Shown: positions 27,092 to 44,020, numbered from the stretch's first letter. The stretch: DNA of 64,000 nucleotides from Promethearchaeota archaeon (GCA_019058445.1 JAHPZA010000009.1:192001-256000); one strand, 5' to 3'. Made by a program: numbers and translations. Notes: generated by a model not told the origin, from the letters alone.

Positions 27092-27378
27092 TTGAATCCC
27101 CAATTTGTATTATATATTTAATATGAAGATAATTTTATTTTTTTTTTAATGATGATTATATTAAAGTCAAACTCAAATTTAAATTAAAACATAGCGATAA
27201 TTTAAGAAGAAATAATAGATAATCAACATCATATCAAGATTTAAGTATGTCCATCCATAATTTAGAAGATTAAATTAGTGCGTTATTGATAAATCACTAA
27301 AAAAACTTTTATAATCATCTTGATATATTCTTAATATTAAATATTTCATAATAGAGGTTACCAATATATTCGTAAATT

Positions 27379-28332
27379 ATGATATCTAGAATTCTGATTA
27401 TGGCTCCGGGAGGTGTAATTTAGAAAGAATTCCTTTCTAAACGCTACCTCTGCTACAGCAAGAACTTTATCGGAGACATGCAAAAGGATGATAATTTAAT
27501 CGAAGAAGATTTAGTTGGGGGATTTCTTAATGCTATTAGTAGTTTTGCACAAGAAATACAAGGCGGAGCCATAGAGTCTTTAAATTTTAGAAATTTCGAT
27601 TTCATTTATTCATATGATGAAGAATTTGGGTGTATGTTTGTACTAGTTATAGACATCGGTGATCCAGAAGAGGTAGTGAGAGAAAAACTTGAACTTATGA
27701 AAAACAAGTTCATGGAAAGATATAGAGAAGAGATACGAACATTTAGTGGATGCATTTCTGTTTTTGATGAGTTTGATGAATTTGTAGAAGAGAATATATT
27801 TATACCACCAAAAGTATTATTAGTAGGTGAGCCGGGGGTTGGGAAAACAACGATTATGAATTTATTTCCCGGAGAGACAATCTTAGAATTAGATGAGGAT
27901 TTAAACGAGATCATTCAAAAACCAATAGATAATATTAATTTAAGAAGCATAAAACAAATTACATTAAGGGAAATGGACTTAAGTGAATTAGTGGATAAAT
28001 CAAAACTATATAGACCTCTATTAAACTCGATAGATGCCATTTGTATAGTTTCTAACTCAGCAGCCAGTAATTTGTCTAGAACAAAGAATTTATTTTCTCG
28101 ATTAAAACCATTAGTGAAAAATACTGATTTCTATTTAATCGCAAATTTCCAAGATTTAAAAGAATACGCTTTTGAACCAAAGAAAATCGAAGATATGTTT
28201 GACGGGATAAAGACCTATGGATATTCAGCAACTCAAGATGATGCGAAAAGTAATTTTCTTCAGATATTGACAGAAATCTTAGAAAAATCTGTAGTCGAAA
28301 AGATTGAAATGAAACAAAAAAATTCATCTTGA
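27379..28332 (+). CDS. Longin-domain + small-GTPase fusion; exons 27379-27417 and 27448-28332
   Basis: Spliced N-terminus MISRILIMAPGGV|LCYSKNF...EEDLVGGFLNAISSFAQE (longin); GEPGVGKT P-loop, ANFQD, SAT. Confidence 0.8.
27418..27447 (+). other. Putative bulge-helix-bulge (EndA-type) mRNA intron, 30 nt, with in-frame TAG
   Basis: Central helix GGUG(27412-15)/CGCU(27442-45); 3-nt bulges UAA(27416-18) and ACC(27446-48); 9-bp intron stem UUUAGAAAG/CUUUCUAAA; canonical cut positions give an in-frame junction. Confidence 0.75.
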
Positions 28333-28390: not shown

Positions 28391-28879
28391 ATGAGTCTTC
28401 CAGATAAATACGTATTCCCCGTTTATATCTATAAGGACATCTTAGACGAAATTAAAAATGTGTGCAAAAAAGCGAAATTAGAAGTTTTTGGATATTTAAT
28501 AGGGACTATTCATACATGGAATAAAAAAACCTACATAATTATTGAGGACCAACTCTTTCTCATAGGAGCAGTCCATAGTGATAAATATTCAACTTCCCAA
28601 ATAGAGGGAACCGCGGGAAAATACGAGAAAAAATTTCAAAAATTAAAACGTAAAAAAAATAATCAAGAACTGAGAATTGTTGGATGGTGGCATTCACATC
28701 CAGGATTTTCCTGTTTCCTTTCAAGAACGGACCTTCATACGCAAGAAGCTTTTTTTTATGAATCCTACCAAGTCGCATTAGTAGTTGATCCGATTAAAAA
28801 AGAGCTTGCATTCTTTACCTTAGATGGAAAATCAGATAATAGATATAAAGAAATTAGCTATGCAGTTATAAAACCATAG
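28391..28879 (+). CDS. JAB1/MPN (JAMM) metalloprotease, deubiquitinase-like
   Basis: EVFGYLIG; GWWHSHPGFSCFLSRTD (HxHx7Sx2D). Confidence 0.92.
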   Translation: MSLPDKYVFPVYIYKDILDEIKNVCKKAKLEVFGYLIGTIHTWNKKTYIIIEDQLFLIGAVHSDKYSTSQIEGTAGKYEKKFQKLKRKKNNQELRIVGWWHSHPGFSCFLSRTDLHTQEAFFYESYQVALVVDPIKKELAFFTLDGKSDNRYKEISYAVIKP

Positions 28880-28915: not shown

Positions 28916-29794
28916 ATGAAGTTATCTGAAAATAAAGATGAGGAAGACTTTGAAGTTATATCTGAAGTATCGATTGATGATGATAAATATGATAGGCAAA
29001 AACGAATTGTAGGATGGGATCAAAGCAAAATATCGAACGCTACAGTAATGGTTGTTGGAGCTGGGGCAACGGGTAATGAACTGATCAAGAATTTAGTATT
29101 AACTGGAATCGGAAAACTAATTTTAATCGACTATGATACAATAAACATCTCTAATCTTAATCGATGCGTATTATTTGACAAAAAAAGTGCTAAAAAACAA
29201 GAGTATAAAGTAGACGTAGTGAAAAAGGCGGTAAAAAATTTAGGAGAAACAGAAATAGTTGCACTAAAGGAAGATTTAAATGATATTGATAAAGATTTCT
29301 ATAAAAAGTCTGATGTGATATGTTCTTGCGTAGACAATATTGAAGCTCGACTCCAATCAAATAATTATGCCTATTACTACGGAATTCCTTTCATAGATTC
29401 TGGGATAGATGAATTTTACGGAACGGTTCAGGCAGTCTATTCTGAAGTTAAGGATGCTGCCTGTATGCAATGTGGTGTTTCAGGTATGGATTTGGATCTT
29501 ATGTGGCAAAAATATTCCTGCACTGGTCAGGAGATTGAATCTGAAAATGGGGAAACTATCGGGAAAATGGCAACTCTTATCACCACCACTGCTATTATTG
29601 GGGGTATACAATCTCAACAAGTAATAAAATTCTTACTGGGATTAGATTATTTTAAAAAAACTGGAAAATGGAATCCAAATATTGGAGAACCTTTAATTGG
29701 TAAGCAACTTAACTATAATGGCTTAACCAATTCATTTGAAATTATAAACAAGATAAAAAATGAAGAATGTTGGGTGTGCTCTTATAAAAAGTAA
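28916..29794 (+). CDS. Ubiquitin-activating E1-like (ThiF-family) enzyme
   Basis: YDRQ, GAGATG, SNLNR, CMQC...CWVC zinc site, putative catalytic Cys in YSCT. Confidence 0.9.
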   Translation: MKLSENKDEEDFEVISEVSIDDDKYDRQKRIVGWDQSKISNATVMVVGAGATGNELIKNLVLTGIGKLILIDYDTINISNLNRCVLFDKKSAKKQEYKVDVVKKAVKNLGETEIVALKEDLNDIDKDFYKKSDVICSCVDNIEARLQSNNYAYYYGIPFIDSGIDEFYGTVQAVYSEVKDAACMQCGVSGMDLDLMWQKYSCTGQEIESENGETIGKMATLITTTAIIGGIQSQQVIKFLLGLDYFKKTGKWNPNIGEPLIGKQLNYNGLTNSFEIINKIKNEECWVCSYKK

Positions 29795-42255: not shown

Positions 42256-42720
42256 ATGTCGGATAAAAGAATTAATCAATTAAAGTTCATAGTATCAATG
42301 TTTAAAATGTCTATGAATGAATTCAATAATGTAATGGGGCCTGAATCAATTCAGACTATTTTTAGATTAATCGGAGAAAATCAAGGTACAGCAATAGAAA
42401 AAAGATTAAAAGAAAAATATAAGGTTGATAATTGGACTCCAGAAAAATTAAGCGAATTATTAATTAAAGATGTATTTGAACCTGCTATAGGAGAAGATAG
42501 CGCGGAGATAAATGTTACAGGTAATGAACTGACTGTTAAAATAAAAGCCTGCCCATTTCATAAAGCAGGTATAAAAATTGATGATAAATTCTATTGTACA
42601 TATACAGAGGGATTAATTGATACAGTATCTAAATTAGCATTGAAAGATACAGAATTTAAAACTGAACTTTTGCAATCTGAGGGAAAAGATTGTTGTCAAT
42701 TTAAAATAATAATTAACTAA
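42256..42720 (+). CDS. V4R-like/methanogen output domain protein
   Basis: ACPF...FYC.YTEG...GKDCCQF. Confidence 0.75.
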   Translation: MSDKRINQLKFIVSMFKMSMNEFNNVMGPESIQTIFRLIGENQGTAIEKRLKEKYKVDNWTPEKLSELLIKDVFEPAIGEDSAEINVTGNELTVKIKACPFHKAGIKIDDKFYCTYTEGLIDTVSKLALKDTEFKTELLQSEGKDCCQFKIIIN

Positions 42721-42752
42721 ATAAACAGGTATTAGAATTTTTATTCTTAATC

Positions 42753-43523
42753 TTATATCAGGGTTTTAATTTTTTCTGCAATGCGTTCAGCAGAATAATC
42801 CATCATTCCAAGTGTAGTTTTTTTAGTAAATTGAATAATCAATAATAAATTAATGAAATTCTGATAAGATATAACTCTTTCACATACCTTTTGTCCATTT
42901 CCTAATGTATAAAATAGTTCAGGTAAATCAAACACGCCGGTCATATACCTAATTTCTAATTCTCTCATTGCTCTAAGAAATACATCATCTGTTAGTGAAG
43001 AATAGATAATAGACCCTTTACTTGTTAATAATGCACAGCCAATTATTTCTTCTTCAGAGCGTAAGGTTGCAAAGTAATTAATGATCTCATTATATGATTT
43101 ATGTTGTTTCATTTGATTGATTTCTTCTTCCCCATGAATTATGGTGTCAATTTGAGTATTAAAATTAGGATCCTCAATTATTTCACAGCCTTTCTCATAT
43201 TCTCCATCATTTATCATTTTTTGATAATATTGAACAAAGAGAAGAGTGATTTTTTCCAATCTACTATTAATGAATAATAGATTTTCCCCTGAATCAGAGA
43301 GAATTACGAATACAAACTCCTTTTCTTTTTTTAAAACAAATCTTAATTCGCTTAATTCTAGAACCTCTAGATTTTTCGAAATTACCTTTTCAGAAAAAGA
43401 TAATATTGCAGAGATAAAAGGTGTTATTAAATCAGTTTGTAAATCTTTAAATTCATCTGAAAAATCCCGTTTATACACACATACTCCACCAGAATGCAAA
43501 ATAAAAAGAGAATGAATCTTCAT
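42753..43523 (-). CDS. Longin + roadblock/profilin-like domain protein
   Basis: LFILHSGGVCVY...DLITPFISAILSFS; second domain CALLTSKGSIIYSS. Confidence 0.7.
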   Translation of the reverse strand: MKIHSLFILHSGGVCVYKRDFSDEFKDLQTDLITPFISAILSFSEKVISKNLEVLELSELRFVLKKEKEFVFVILSDSGENLLFINSRLEKITLLFVQYYQKMINDGEYEKGCEIIEDPNFNTQIDTIIHGEEEINQMKQHKSYNEIINYFATLRSEEEIIGCALLTSKGSIIYSSLTDDVFLRAMRELEIRYMTGVFDLPELFYTLGNGQKVCERVISYQNFINLLLIIQFTKKTTLGMMDYSAERIAEKIKTLI

Positions 43524-43585
43524 TAGCTAACTATATTAGATGGTATTAATATTAAATTATAAGTAATACTTTAAAATTATTTAGA

Positions 43586-44020
43586 TTGATGATCAGAATG
43601 GGGATTCTTACTAAAGTAAAGGAATTGTTTGAGAAGAAACCTATTGAAACCCTTCGCCAGTTAGAAGAAGAGTTAGCGAAAATTCAAAGTAAAAATAAGT
43701 ATGAAATAATTGCTTTAATCGGGACTGGGGGAAGGCTTAAGGGATTACCCCTTGTTTATGCCGCTGAAGATGAAAATTCTTTAAAAATTCTTTCAGCAAG
43801 ACTGAGTGAACTATTAAAAATAATACAGAATCTTTCAGAGGAAGATATTCTCAGAGACATAGTGATTAATTATGATGATACAATATTATTTTTCAAACCC
43901 ATAATGGCTAATATTAGTTTTTTCGCTGTTGTAAGGGAGAATGATGATATTTTAATTTTAAAGCAATTTATTTATAAACATGAAGATATATTAAAAGAAT
44001 TATTTCATGATAAAATATAG
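43586..44020 (+). CDS. Roadblock/longin-like protein
   Basis: IIALIG...GLPLV...LSARL pattern; genomic context. Confidence 0.55.
   Translation: MMIRMGILTKVKELFEKKPIETLRQLEEELAKIQSKNKYEIIALIGTGGRLKGLPLVYAAEDENSLKILSARLSELLKIIQNLSEEDILRDIVINYDDTILFFKPIMANISFFAVVRENDDILILKQFIYKHEDILKELFHDKI

What the first reader, a model, noticed from the sequence alone, without database searches (positions are those of the whole stretch)
27379..27480. Candidate bulge-helix-bulge mRNA intron in a longin-GTPase gene upstream of the ubiquitin cluster
Seen: the called ORF starts at 27478 and lacks the first longin strands. In the same frame upstream, ATG 27379 reads MISRILIMAPGGV, then 30 nt containing an in-frame TAG (27421-23), then LCYSKNFIGDMQ. 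The insert and its flanks fold into an h-B-H-B-h' motif: exon stem GGA(27409-11)/UCU(27449-51), 4-bp central helix GGUG/CGCU (2 G-C, 2 G-U), opposite 3-nt bulges UAA and ACC, and a 9-bp intron stem closed by an AAUUC loop. Established: archaeal tRNA-splicing endonuclease EndA cuts after the second nucleotide of each bulge and RtcB ligates; the classic mRNA case is crenarchaeal cbf5. Applying that rule (UA|A, AC|C) removes exactly 27418-27447 and gives GGT GTA|CTC TGC TAC = GGVLCY, matching GGVCVY in the intron-less longin at 42753-43523. Inference: this is a spliced protein-coding intron in an Asgard eukaryotic-signature gene, which I do not know to be described. The unspliced message stops after 14 codons, so splicing would act as an on/off switch, conceptually like non-spliceosomal HAC1/XBP1 splicing.
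Basis: partly seen in the sequence, partly recalled or inferred. Interest (0 to 1): 0.95.

Follow-up and report, generated by a model that had tools for sequence, protein, structure and literature searches.

The report
tRNA-type mini-intron in Asgard longin-GTPase gene
A 30-base hairpin with a stop codon interrupts a conserved longin-GTPase gene of a Loki-type Asgard archaeon exactly where the archaeal tRNA-splicing enzyme would cut, so the mRNA very probably has to be cut and rejoined before the full protein can be made; published work documents this for only one archaeal gene family (cbf5).

Summary
Bases 27418-27447 are a 30-nt in-frame insert with a TAG. It lies between codons 13 and 14 of a gene whose roughly 250 relatives read MISRILI..GG(V/I/L)|LCYSKNF without a break. 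Removing exactly these bases gives the N-terminus of the intact relative P0006, residue for residue.

The flanks can form a canonical h-B-H-B-h' motif, and its cut rule gives those same boundaries.

Evidence found here:
- The insert is present in four other independent assemblies of near relatives.
- A homologous 30-nt insert sits at the same site in a relative only 66% identical. Compensatory changes there keep both the 4-bp central helix and the 9-bp intron stem. They break the thermodynamically favoured alternative fold.
- Exon changes between insert-bearing strains are synonymous (pN/pS 0.087). All three changes inside the insert would alter the protein but keep the RNA pairing.
- One strain has no internal ATG.
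- The genome encodes EndA and RtcB. PylS and PylD were not detected.
- Its EF-2 gene carries an insert of the same 1+9+5+9+4+2 build.

No RNA data exist for this gene, so splicing itself is inferred. The "on/off switch" idea is untested. This scan has already noted many such introns, in this genome and in other Asgard genomes. I found no paper describing them.

The parts
27379..27417 (+). Exon 1: start codon plus 12 codons (MISRILIMAPGGV), which form strand beta-1 and the beta-1/beta-2 turn of the longin domain
   Evidence: Identical to the N-terminus of intact relative P0006. Only synonymous differences from L067 (codons 5 and 6) and from a Logan contig (27396 G>A). Structure model.
27418..27447 (+). 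30-nt BHB-type intron, built as 1 nt + 9-nt stem arm + 5-nt loop + 9-nt stem arm + 4 nt (central-helix strand) + 2 nt
   Evidence: Absent from intact orthologues L002 and L003. Present in L067, L001 (partial) and two Logan contigs. Homologous insert at the same site in L068/L069. Single copy in the genome.
27421..27423 (+). In-frame TAG that ends translation of the unspliced message after 14 codons
   Evidence: PylS and PylD were not detected in the genome. The L068 insert has TAA and TAG in frame.
27409..27411 (+). Outer helix h, 5' strand (GGA, exon 1); pairs with 27449-27451
   Evidence: Sequence. Paired in all three complete insert-bearing sequences, invariant.
27412..27415 (+). Central 4-bp helix H, 5' strand (GGUG, exon 1); pairs with 27442-27445
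   Evidence: Two of its four pairs show changes on both sides across lineages (U.G / U-A / C-G and G-C / A-U), with 100% pairing.
27416..27418 (+). Bulge 1 (UAA); predicted 5' splice site between 27417 and 27418
   Evidence: Sequence. The cut rule was checked on tRNA-Tyr(GUA) of the same genome. The junction gives GTA=Val, as in relatives.
27419..27441 (+). Intron helix h': 9-bp stem (27419-27/27433-41) closed by the loop AAUUC (27428-32)
   Evidence: Two compensatory pairs and one G.U change in L068. In a Logan contig, A27424G keeps a G.U pair and A27429U lies in the loop.
27442..27445 (+). Central helix H, 3' strand (CGCU, intron)
   Evidence: Reads CACU in L001 and L067 and UGCU in L068. 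Each is complementary to its own exon strand.
27446..27448 (+). Bulge 2 (ACC); predicted 3' splice site between 27447 and 27448
   Evidence: Sequence. In L068 the bulge is AGC. There only the canonical cut gives ATA=Ile, as in its nearest relatives P0016 and P0027.
27449..27451 (+). Outer helix h, 3' strand (UCU, exon 2)
27448..28332 (+). Exon 2: rest of the longin domain and the Arf/MglA-like small GTPase domain, stop codon included. The spliced product would be 307 aa.
   Evidence: pN/pS 0.087 against L001. Fold results.
27478..27480 (+). Internal ATG used by gene callers as the start. It is probably an ordinary Met codon (residue 24), not the true start.
   Evidence: It is ATT (Ile) in insert-bearing strain L067 and Ile in most relatives. 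The 10 codons before it show 5 synonymous and 0 non-synonymous differences against L001.

Best explanation
Bases 27418-27447 are an archaeal bulge-helix-bulge (tRNA-type) intron inside the coding sequence of a longin-GTPase gene.

Proposed mechanism:
1. The primary transcript starts upstream of ATG 27379.
2. Around codons 11-24 it folds, or is held by the enzyme, into h (GGA/UCU), a 3-nt bulge, H (GGUG/CGCU), a 3-nt bulge, and h' (a 9-bp hairpin).
3. The splicing endonuclease EndA cuts between the second and third base of each bulge (27417|27418 and 27447|27448).
4. RtcB joins the exons.
5. The mature mRNA encodes a 307-aa protein beginning MISRILIMAPGGV-LCYSKNF.

Unspliced RNA would yield only a 14-residue peptide.

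Shown here: the insert, its exact boundaries by homology, its retention under selection, compensatory changes in the helices, and the presence of EndA and RtcB.

Inferred: the cleavage and ligation themselves, and that they are constitutive.
For: 1. Exact restoration. About 250 relatives of 298-310 aa begin MISRILI..GG(V/I/L)LCYSKNF. P0006 (85% identical) matches the predicted spliced N-terminus, except that residue 23 is N in P0006 and D here, which is downstream of the junction. Intact orthologues L002 and L003 lack the 30 nt.

2. Not an artefact. The insert is in ENA contigs from two other samples (L001, L067) and in two Logan contigs of an unrelated soil study.

3. Selection after acquisition.
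- Window against L001: pS 0.445, pN/pS 0.087.
- The 10 codons between the insert and the internal ATG carry 5 synonymous and 0 non-synonymous changes.
- Exon 1 against L067 has 2 synonymous and 0 non-synonymous changes.
- L067 has Ile instead of the internal Met, so no nearby alternative start exists.

4. The insert is not translated. Its three strain differences (27424 A>G, 27429 A>T, 27443 G>A) would give K>E, E>D and R>H. Each keeps or improves the RNA pairing or lies in the loop.

5. A second lineage. L068/L069 (66% aa identity) carries a 30-nt insert of the same build at the same codon boundary, with TAA and TAG in frame. In the BHB register all cells pair, and 4 pairs change on both sides (2 in H, 2 in h'). 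The rival 7-bp register loses 2 pairs.

6. Machinery. An EndA catalytic subunit (both Pfam domains) and RtcB are in the genome. Asgard EndA is reported to be the broad-specificity (alpha-beta)2 type with the L1 loop (PMC5829648).

7. Same genome.
- tRNA-Tyr(GUA) has a 37/38 intron with the same geometry and cut rule.
- The EF-2 gene is split by a 30-nt insert of identical build. Its exon 1 ends at yeast eEF2 residue 58, and exon 2 aligns from its residue 4 to residue 62, so exon 2 starts at residue 59 by register.
- With strict motif settings, 10 ORF-fusing 30-nt hits were found against 1 for a mirror-geometry control.
Against: No RNA evidence. No public RNA run holds this locus, so no spliced junction was seen.

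The BHB register is about 10 kcal/mol less stable than the predicted minimum-energy fold of the naked RNA in the window's own sequence. The enzyme would have to select or induce it.

Only three distinct complete intron sequences are available for the covariation count, so the statistics are thin (13 of 500 shuffles reach the observed values).

The beta subunit of EndA was not detected with Pfam models.

The central helix in the window has two G.U pairs.
Confidence: 0.85

Rival explanations
1. The insert is a disabling or truncating insertion. Under this view the gene is a pseudogene, or it now makes an N-terminally shortened protein from ATG 27478.
For: Gene callers start at 27478. The insert is restricted to a few lineages, and all other species representatives searched lack it. 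A paralogous longin protein exists at 42753-43523.
Against: The insert has persisted through pS = 0.445 of divergence while the gene stayed at pN/pS 0.087.

The codons upstream of 27478, and exon 1, show only synonymous changes.

Strain L067 has ATT instead of the internal ATG.

A product starting at residue 24 would lack strands beta-1 and beta-2 of the longin sheet.

A random insertion would not carry a tail complementary to the exon that co-varies with it.
Confidence: 0.06
2. The 30 nt are translated. TAG would be read through or recoded (for example as pyrrolysine), giving a 10-residue insertion in the longin domain.
For: The insert is a multiple of three and has a single stop in this genome. 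ARAGORN calls a 'tRNA-Pyl(cta)' with an intron on the same contig.
Against: No PylS or PylD reaches the family cut-off in a genome that is 92.6% complete.

The homologous insert in L068 has both TAA and TAG.

All three strain differences inside the insert are non-synonymous, while all those in the flanking exons are synonymous.

The insertion would fall at the start of strand beta-2.
Confidence: 0.03
3. The insert is a DNA-level palindromic element (a miniature mobile element, a recombination site or a protein-binding hairpin). It would be tolerated in the gene and not removed from the RNA by EndA; for example it could be bypassed by ribosome hopping.
For: It is a near-perfect inverted repeat with an EcoRI-like GAATTC centre. 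Its distribution on the gene tree is patchy.
Against: It is single-copy in the genome, and no orthologous or repeated copies turned up in 37 metagenome pattern hits.

There is no target-site duplication.

No matching take-off and landing codons exist for bypassing: GTA before the insert, TAC/CTC after it.

Covariation extends beyond the palindrome into the exon/intron helix H.
Confidence: 0.04
4. The insert is an assembly or sequencing artefact.
For: None found.
Against: Five independent assemblies from at least four samples and three studies carry it, with small differences between them.
Confidence: 0.01

Closest known systems
cbf5 pre-mRNA intron of Crenarchaeota (Desulfurococcales, Sulfolobales; Watanabe 2002, Yokobori 2009 = PMC2738675)
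   Same: Both are short introns inside a protein-coding sequence: 16-44 bp for cbf5, 30 nt here. Both are bounded by a BHB-type motif, presumably cut by a hetero-tetrameric broad-specificity EndA and rejoined by the tRNA ligase. Some cbf5 introns are also multiples of three. Both have a patchy gain/loss distribution, and both are mis-annotated by gene callers.
   Different: The host gene differs (a longin-GTPase, not the pseudouridine synthase), and so does the phylum (Asgard/Lokiarchaeia-type). Here the motif is the strict hBHBh' form, whereas cbf5 introns often have a relaxed motif. The intron sits 13 codons from the start, not at a catalytic residue. cbf5 splicing is shown by RNA work; here it is inferred.
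Archaeal pre-tRNA introns (canonical 37/38 and non-canonical positions), including those of Asgard archaea (bioRxiv 10.64898/2026.10.13.758758)
   Same: The motif, handedness and cut rule are the same, as checked on tRNA-Tyr(GUA) of this genome. The enzymes are the same. That preprint reports repeated, lineage-specific gains at sites that can form the motif.
   Different: The substrate is an mRNA, and the exon part of the motif is coding sequence. The consequence is restoration of a reading frame rather than of a tRNA fold.
HAC1/XBP1 unconventional cytoplasmic splicing (IRE1 plus tRNA ligase / RtcB)
   Same: Both are non-spliceosomal, protein-only endonuclease-plus-ligase removal of a short intron from an mRNA, and in both the excision changes what is translated. 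RtcB is the ligase for XBP1 in animals.
   Different: IRE1 recognises twin stem-loops with 7-nt loops, not a BHB. That system is stress-regulated and shifts the C-terminal frame. Here nothing shows regulation, and the recognition element is the tRNA-type motif.
Other ~30-nt BHB-type inserts in protein genes of this same genome (EF-2 at G000:C10:684116-684145, GH38-like at C9:6926-6955) and in other Asgard genomes noted by this scan
   Same: The EF-2 insert has the identical 1+9+5+9+4+2 build. The 4-nt strand near its 3' end is complementary to the last exon bases before the bulge. It contains an in-frame stop. Its exon junction is exact by homology.
   Different: The sequences are unrelated apart from the shared build (16 of 30 identical to the EF-2 insert). 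The host genes differ. These cases are AI notes and my own scan, not published work.

Membership tests
Archaeal bulge-helix-bulge intron (EndA/RtcB-spliced) | [quoted passage not shown] | tested here: met
   h is GGA/UCU. H is GGUG/CGCU. The bulges are UAA and ACC. h' is 9 bp. All 16 pairs form in the three complete insert-bearing sequences. Caveat: this is not the predicted minimum-energy fold of the naked RNA.
Archaeal bulge-helix-bulge intron (EndA/RtcB-spliced) | The handedness of tRNA introns: the 5' exon pairs with the 3' end of the intron, and the 3' bulge lies next to the exon helix | tested here: met
   The arrangement matches the 37/38 intron of tRNA-Tyr(GUA) in this genome. A mirror-geometry control gave 1 ORF-fusing 30-nt hit against 10 for the true geometry.
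Archaeal bulge-helix-bulge intron (EndA/RtcB-spliced) | Cutting between the 2nd and 3rd base of each bulge yields a functional mature RNA | tested here: met
   Removing 27418-27447 gives GGV|LCY, as in intact relatives. In L068 only this rule gives Ile, as in its nearest relatives.
Archaeal bulge-helix-bulge intron (EndA/RtcB-spliced) | Helices are maintained by compensatory substitutions | tested here: met
   Four pairs change on both sides (2 in H, 2 in h') with 100% pairing. Versions of the structure slid by 1-3 columns pair in 48-56% of cells. The rival register loses 2 pairs. Only 3 distinct complete sequences were available.
Archaeal bulge-helix-bulge intron (EndA/RtcB-spliced) | Splicing endonuclease and RNA ligase are encoded by the organism | tested here: met
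   EndA has both domains in one 203-codon frame: PF01974 at 68 bits and PF02778 at 29 bits. RtcB (PF01139) scores 574 bits. A separate beta subunit was not detected.
Archaeal bulge-helix-bulge intron (EndA/RtcB-spliced) | Spliced RNA (exon-exon junction, or excised or circular intron) is observed | not testable with these tools
   No RNA run holds the locus. The single metatranscriptome contig laid covers only 27603-27869 and comes from a relative.
cbf5-type pre-mRNA intron | The intron lies in the cbf5/dyskerin pseudouridine synthase gene of Crenarchaeota | tested here: not met
   The host gene is a longin plus small-GTPase protein of a Promethearchaeota/Lokiarchaeia-type genome.
HAC1/XBP1-type IRE1 splicing | Twin stem-loops with conserved 7-nt loops at both splice sites, and stress-regulated cleavage | tested here: not met
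   The splice sites lie in 3-nt bulges of one composite helix, not in 7-nt loops. IRE1 and regulation were not examined.
Longin-domain small GTPase (Asgard eukaryote-like trafficking protein) | An N-terminal beta-beta-alpha-beta-beta-beta-alpha longin fold | tested here: met
   AlphaFold model of P0006 residues 1-118: pLDDT 82, with elements in that order. Foldseek matches AP-2 sigma, the Mon1-Ccz1 longin domains (TM 0.64-0.67), TRAPP subunits and Ykt6, and also the related roadblock protein MglB. No Pfam longin model hits this protein.
Longin-domain small GTPase (Asgard eukaryote-like trafficking protein) | A C-terminal Ras-superfamily P-loop GTPase domain | tested here: met
   The G1 motif GEPGVGKT is present. 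Foldseek matches Arf, Arl, MglA and an Asgard Arf, with TM up to 0.7 on the target. Pfam Ras and Roc hits fall below their cut-offs.
TAG recoding (pyrrolysine) | PylS and PylBCD are present | tested here: not met
   The best PylS_Cterm hit scores 38.6 bits against a 178-bit cut-off. The best PylD hit scores 24.4 bits against 150.

The most novel reading that the evidence does not exclude
This gene records recent intron traffic. A stereotyped family of roughly 30-nt BHB mini-introns would be actively gained, or exchanged between lineages, in Lokiarchaeia-type Asgard genomes, entering coding sequences wherever the exon can supply half of the motif.

The same codon boundary of this longin-GTPase gene would then have been hit twice independently, in the two non-sister intron-bearing clades.

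If so, many Asgard mRNAs, including EF-2, routinely depend on the tRNA-splicing machinery. That would be a pre-spliceosomal form of 'genes in pieces' in the closest prokaryotic relatives of eukaryotes.
Probability: 0.35. Interest if true: 0.85.

Novelty: new member of a known kind. Interest (0 to 1): 0.7.

Why it matters
Published work documents protein-only (tRNA-type) splicing of an archaeal coding sequence for one gene family, cbf5 in Crenarchaeota.

Here the same kind of intron sits in a eukaryote-like trafficking gene, a longin domain fused to an Arf/MglA-like GTPase. This gene heads a ubiquitin-system gene cluster in an Asgard archaeon. The same genome carries inserts of identical build in EF-2 and other genes.

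If confirmed at the RNA level, three things follow.
- Asgard gene annotation systematically truncates or splits such genes. This one loses 23 residues and two core strands.
- The tRNA-splicing machinery has a much wider mRNA clientele in the lineage that gave rise to eukaryotes.
- Presence/absence among near relatives, together with two intron-bearing lineages at one site, offers a tractable case for studying how such introns are gained and lost.

Tried and rejected
**RNA evidence.** Two searches for sequencing runs listed no RNA holder of the locus. The only metatranscriptome contig laid (X21) covers 27603-27869 at 90-95% identity, so it comes from a relative and does not reach the intron. 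No verdict on expression or splicing is possible.

**Metagenome scan.** A pattern scan for the hairpin gave 37 hits, all unrelated hairpins with different flanks. No further orthologous introns were found this way.

**Species genomes.** In 400 species genomes of the phylum, only this genome shows the 10 extra codons with a stop. The other 'stops inside' rows have no extra length; the one I inspected (L027) has its stop just upstream of the start codon.

**P0107.** This 285-aa homologue starts MCYNK and looked like a second truncated call. Its contig has an intact, intron-less N-terminus.

**Cluster look-up.** It gave no further members.

**Genome-wide motif census.**
- Loose motif settings are swamped by background. 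True and mirror geometry give equal counts.
- Frameshifting lengths cannot be separated from gene boundaries without homology.
- Only the strict setting (7-bp or longer intron stem, length 30, in-frame stop) shows an excess: 10 against 1.

**ARAGORN.** Its intron calls in this genome are mostly unreliable for checking the cut rule. Only tRNA-Tyr gave a clean canonical case.

**Rfam.** Only a chance miRNA-hairpin match turned up, far below its gathering score.

**Rejected readings.**
- Pyl recoding: PylS and PylD were not detected.
- Translational bypass: no matching take-off and landing codons.
- Transposon-like element: single copy, no target duplication.
- The 7-bp minimum-energy register as the functional fold: it is broken in L068.

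Full report
**1. What is in the sequence**

From ATG 27379 the + strand reads MISRILIMAPGGV, then Ile and TAG (27421-23). The same frame continues KEFLSKRY and LCYSKNFIGD into the ORF that a mechanical caller starts at ATG 27478 and ends at 28332.

Bases 27419-27427 and 27433-27441 form a perfect 9-bp stem around the loop AATTC. The stretch 27400-27460 folds better than all 200 dinucleotide shuffles (z = -3.4).

- h: GGA 27409-11 with UCU 27449-51
- H: GGUG 27412-15 with CGCU 27442-45
- bulges: UAA 27416-18 and ACC 27446-48

One correction is needed. This register is not the predicted minimum-energy fold. ViennaRNA prefers a 7-bp outer helix (27409-15 with 27445-51) plus a 3x3 internal loop, at -20.0 against -10.2 kcal/mol.

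**2. The insert is defined independently by homology**

The ORF product has more than 250 relatives. Nearly all are 298-310 aa long and begin MISRILI(I/M)xxGG(V/I/L)LCYSKNF. P0006 (307 aa, 85% identical) begins MISRILIMAPGGVLCYSKNFIG. This is exactly exon 1 joined to the sequence after 27447.

DNA alignment with two intact orthologues from related genomes (L002, L003; 87-88% identical) shows a clean 30-nt gap.

Only two excisions give GGVLCY: 27418-27447, or the same 30 nt shifted by -1. The BHB cut rule (between the second and third base of each bulge) picks the first.

The spliced product would be 307 aa.

**3. Not an artefact, and retained under selection**

The insert occurs in four other assemblies of near relatives:
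- ENA contig L067 (sample ERZ27256772). It is complete and differs by G27443A.
- ENA contig L001 (ERZ27283517). The contig begins inside the insert and carries the same G27443A.
- Two Logan contigs of an unrelated soil metagenome study. Both span 27337-27485 without gaps.

Window and L001 differ at pS = 0.445 but have pN/pS = 0.087 over exon 2. The ten codons between the insert and the internal ATG carry five synonymous and no non-synonymous differences. Exon 1 differs from L067 only by two synonymous changes.

In L067 the 'start' ATG 27478 is ATT (Ile), as in most relatives, so that strain has no nearby alternative start.

The three strain differences inside the insert behave in the opposite way:

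| Change | Effect if translated | Effect on the RNA |
|---|---|---|
| 27424 A>G | K>E | A-U becomes G.U in the stem |
| 27429 A>T | E>D | lies in the loop |
| 27443 G>A | R>H | U.G becomes U-A in helix H |

So the exons evolve as protein and the insert evolves as RNA structure. The genome has no PylS or PylD above the family cut-offs, so TAG recoding is not available.

**4. A second lineage decides the fold**

P0013 (272 aa, 66% identical) is another truncated gene call. Its contigs L068 and L069, from two samples, carry a 30-nt insert at the same codon boundary, GGC ATA | 30 nt | CTC TGC. The build is the same: 1 + 9 + 5 + 9 + 4 + 2. TAA and TAG are both in frame.

On the alignment of insert-bearing sequences:
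- In the BHB structure, 100% of cells pair. Four pairs change on both sides. Two are in the central helix (G-C to A-U, and U.G/U-A/C-G) and two are in the intron stem. Versions of the structure slid by 1-3 columns pair in only 48-56% of cells.
- The rival 7-bp register loses two pairs in L068 and shows no compensatory change in its outer helix.

In L068 only the canonical cut gives ATA (Ile), the residue found in its nearest relatives P0016 and P0027. The -1 alternative gives Met.

The sample is small, with three distinct complete sequences. Even so, it points one way.

**5. Machinery and calibration in the same genome**

The window lies in a 4.6-Mb genome of 31% G+C, 92.6% complete. Its relatives are labelled Promethearchaeota/Lokiarchaeia.

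It encodes an EndA catalytic subunit with both Pfam domains, and RtcB. Asgard EndA is reported as the (alpha-beta)2 type with the L1 loop, which gives broad substrate range in Crenarchaeota (PMC5829648).

tRNA-Tyr(GUA) of this genome has a 37/38 intron with the same geometry and cut rule.

A scan of my own, prompted by earlier notes of this scan, re-found an insert in the EF-2 gene at C10:684116-684145 (minus strand). It has the identical 1+9+5+9+4+2 build and an in-frame TAG. Exon 1 ends at the residue aligned to yeast eEF2 58. Exon 2 aligns from its residue 4 to residue 62, so it starts at 59 by register. A 35%-identical EF-2 paralogue also exists. For EF-2, too, the BHB is not the minimum-energy fold, so that caveat is not specific to this case.

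With a strict motif, 30-nt ORF-fusing hits number 10, against 1 for a mirror-geometry control. Looser settings are uninformative.

**6. The gene**

AlphaFold models of P0006 give strands at 2-9 and 13-19, a helix at 33-49, three more strands, and a helix at 87-110. That is the longin order.

Foldseek matches for the N-terminal domain are AP-2 sigma, the Mon1-Ccz1 longin domains, TRAPP subunits and Ykt6, plus the related roadblock protein MglB. The C-terminal domain matches Arf, Arl and MglA GTPases.

The intron lies between residues 13 and 14, at the beta-1/beta-2 turn. A product starting at Met-24 would lack two core strands.

JAB and E1-like (ThiF) genes follow directly downstream. The same order is seen in L068.

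**7. History**

On a gene tree, the intron-bearing rows fall in two separate, well-supported clades. Each is nested among intron-less relatives, so at least two changes are needed. That means either two gains, or one gain and roughly nine to eleven losses.

The two introns are 21/30 identical. That is about as diverged as the gene itself (~70% nt), which fits an old intron with many losses as well as it fits two gains. I leave this open.

Among 400 species genomes of the phylum, only this one carries the insert.

**8. What is not shown**

No RNA run holds the locus, so cleavage and ligation are inferred.

I found no paper describing BHB introns in Asgard protein genes. The documented precedent is cbf5, with introns of 16-44 bp (PMC2738675).

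This scan has already noted many similar cases, in this genome and in other Asgard genomes. Some reportedly have spliced reads, which I did not check.

**Verdict**

[quoted passage not shown] It is a new member of the cbf5 kind, in a new phylum and a new gene. Its value comes from the covariation that fixes the fold and from its presence/absence pattern among near relatives.

Noticed in passing
G000:C10:684116-684145, minus strand (outside the window; locus L066:2217-2246): The main EF-2 gene of this genome is split after codon 61 by a 30-nt insert of the same 1+9+5+9+4+2 build (H is ACAG/CUGU; bulges AUA and AGU; in-frame TAG). Exon 1 ends at the residue aligned to yeast eEF2 58. Exon 2 aligns from its residue 4 to residue 62, so it begins at 59 by register.
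   Followed up: yes
G000:C9:6926-6955, plus strand (outside the window): A 30-nt BHB-type insert (H is CGUG/CACG; 7-bp stem) lies 20 codons into a 913-codon ORF. My motif scan re-found the insert.
   Followed up: partly
G000:C4:202440, 202683 and 204645, minus strand (outside the window): Three neighbouring ORFs (519, 600 and over 1000 codons) each carry a near-identical 29-nt BHB-type hairpin insert 16 codons after the upstream stop. These may be paralogous genes that share an intron.
   Followed up: no
G000:C9:775863-775892, minus strand, and other 30-nt hits: There are further ORF-fusing 30-nt hairpin inserts with a 4-bp exon/intron helix. For one of them (ATGG/CCAU) the BHB is also the minimum-energy fold. 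Many hits lie within 10-30 codons of the ORF start, which hints at a 5'-end bias.
   Followed up: partly
whole genome G000: ARAGORN finds only 23 tRNA genes, 18 of them with predicted introns. One is a 'tRNA-Pyl(cta)', although no PylS or PylD is present. This points to heavily interrupted tRNA genes that are miscalled or missed.
   Followed up: partly
G000:C10:652107-652775 (outside the window): A second copy of the EF-2 C-terminal third (residues 528-750, 97.8% identical) lies 30 kb from the full gene. It may be a partial duplication or assembly redundancy.
   Followed up: no
window 28391-28879 and 28916-29794 (+): A JAB/MPN deubiquitinase-like gene and an E1-like ThiF gene directly follow the longin-GTPase gene. 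The same order is conserved in the 66%-identical relative L068.
   Followed up: partly
window 42256-44020: An intron-less 256-aa protein with a weak Fuz/Mon1 longin hit (42753-43523, minus strand) lies between two small ORFs of 154 and 144 aa on the plus strand. This may be a second longin/roadblock-type module.
   Followed up: no
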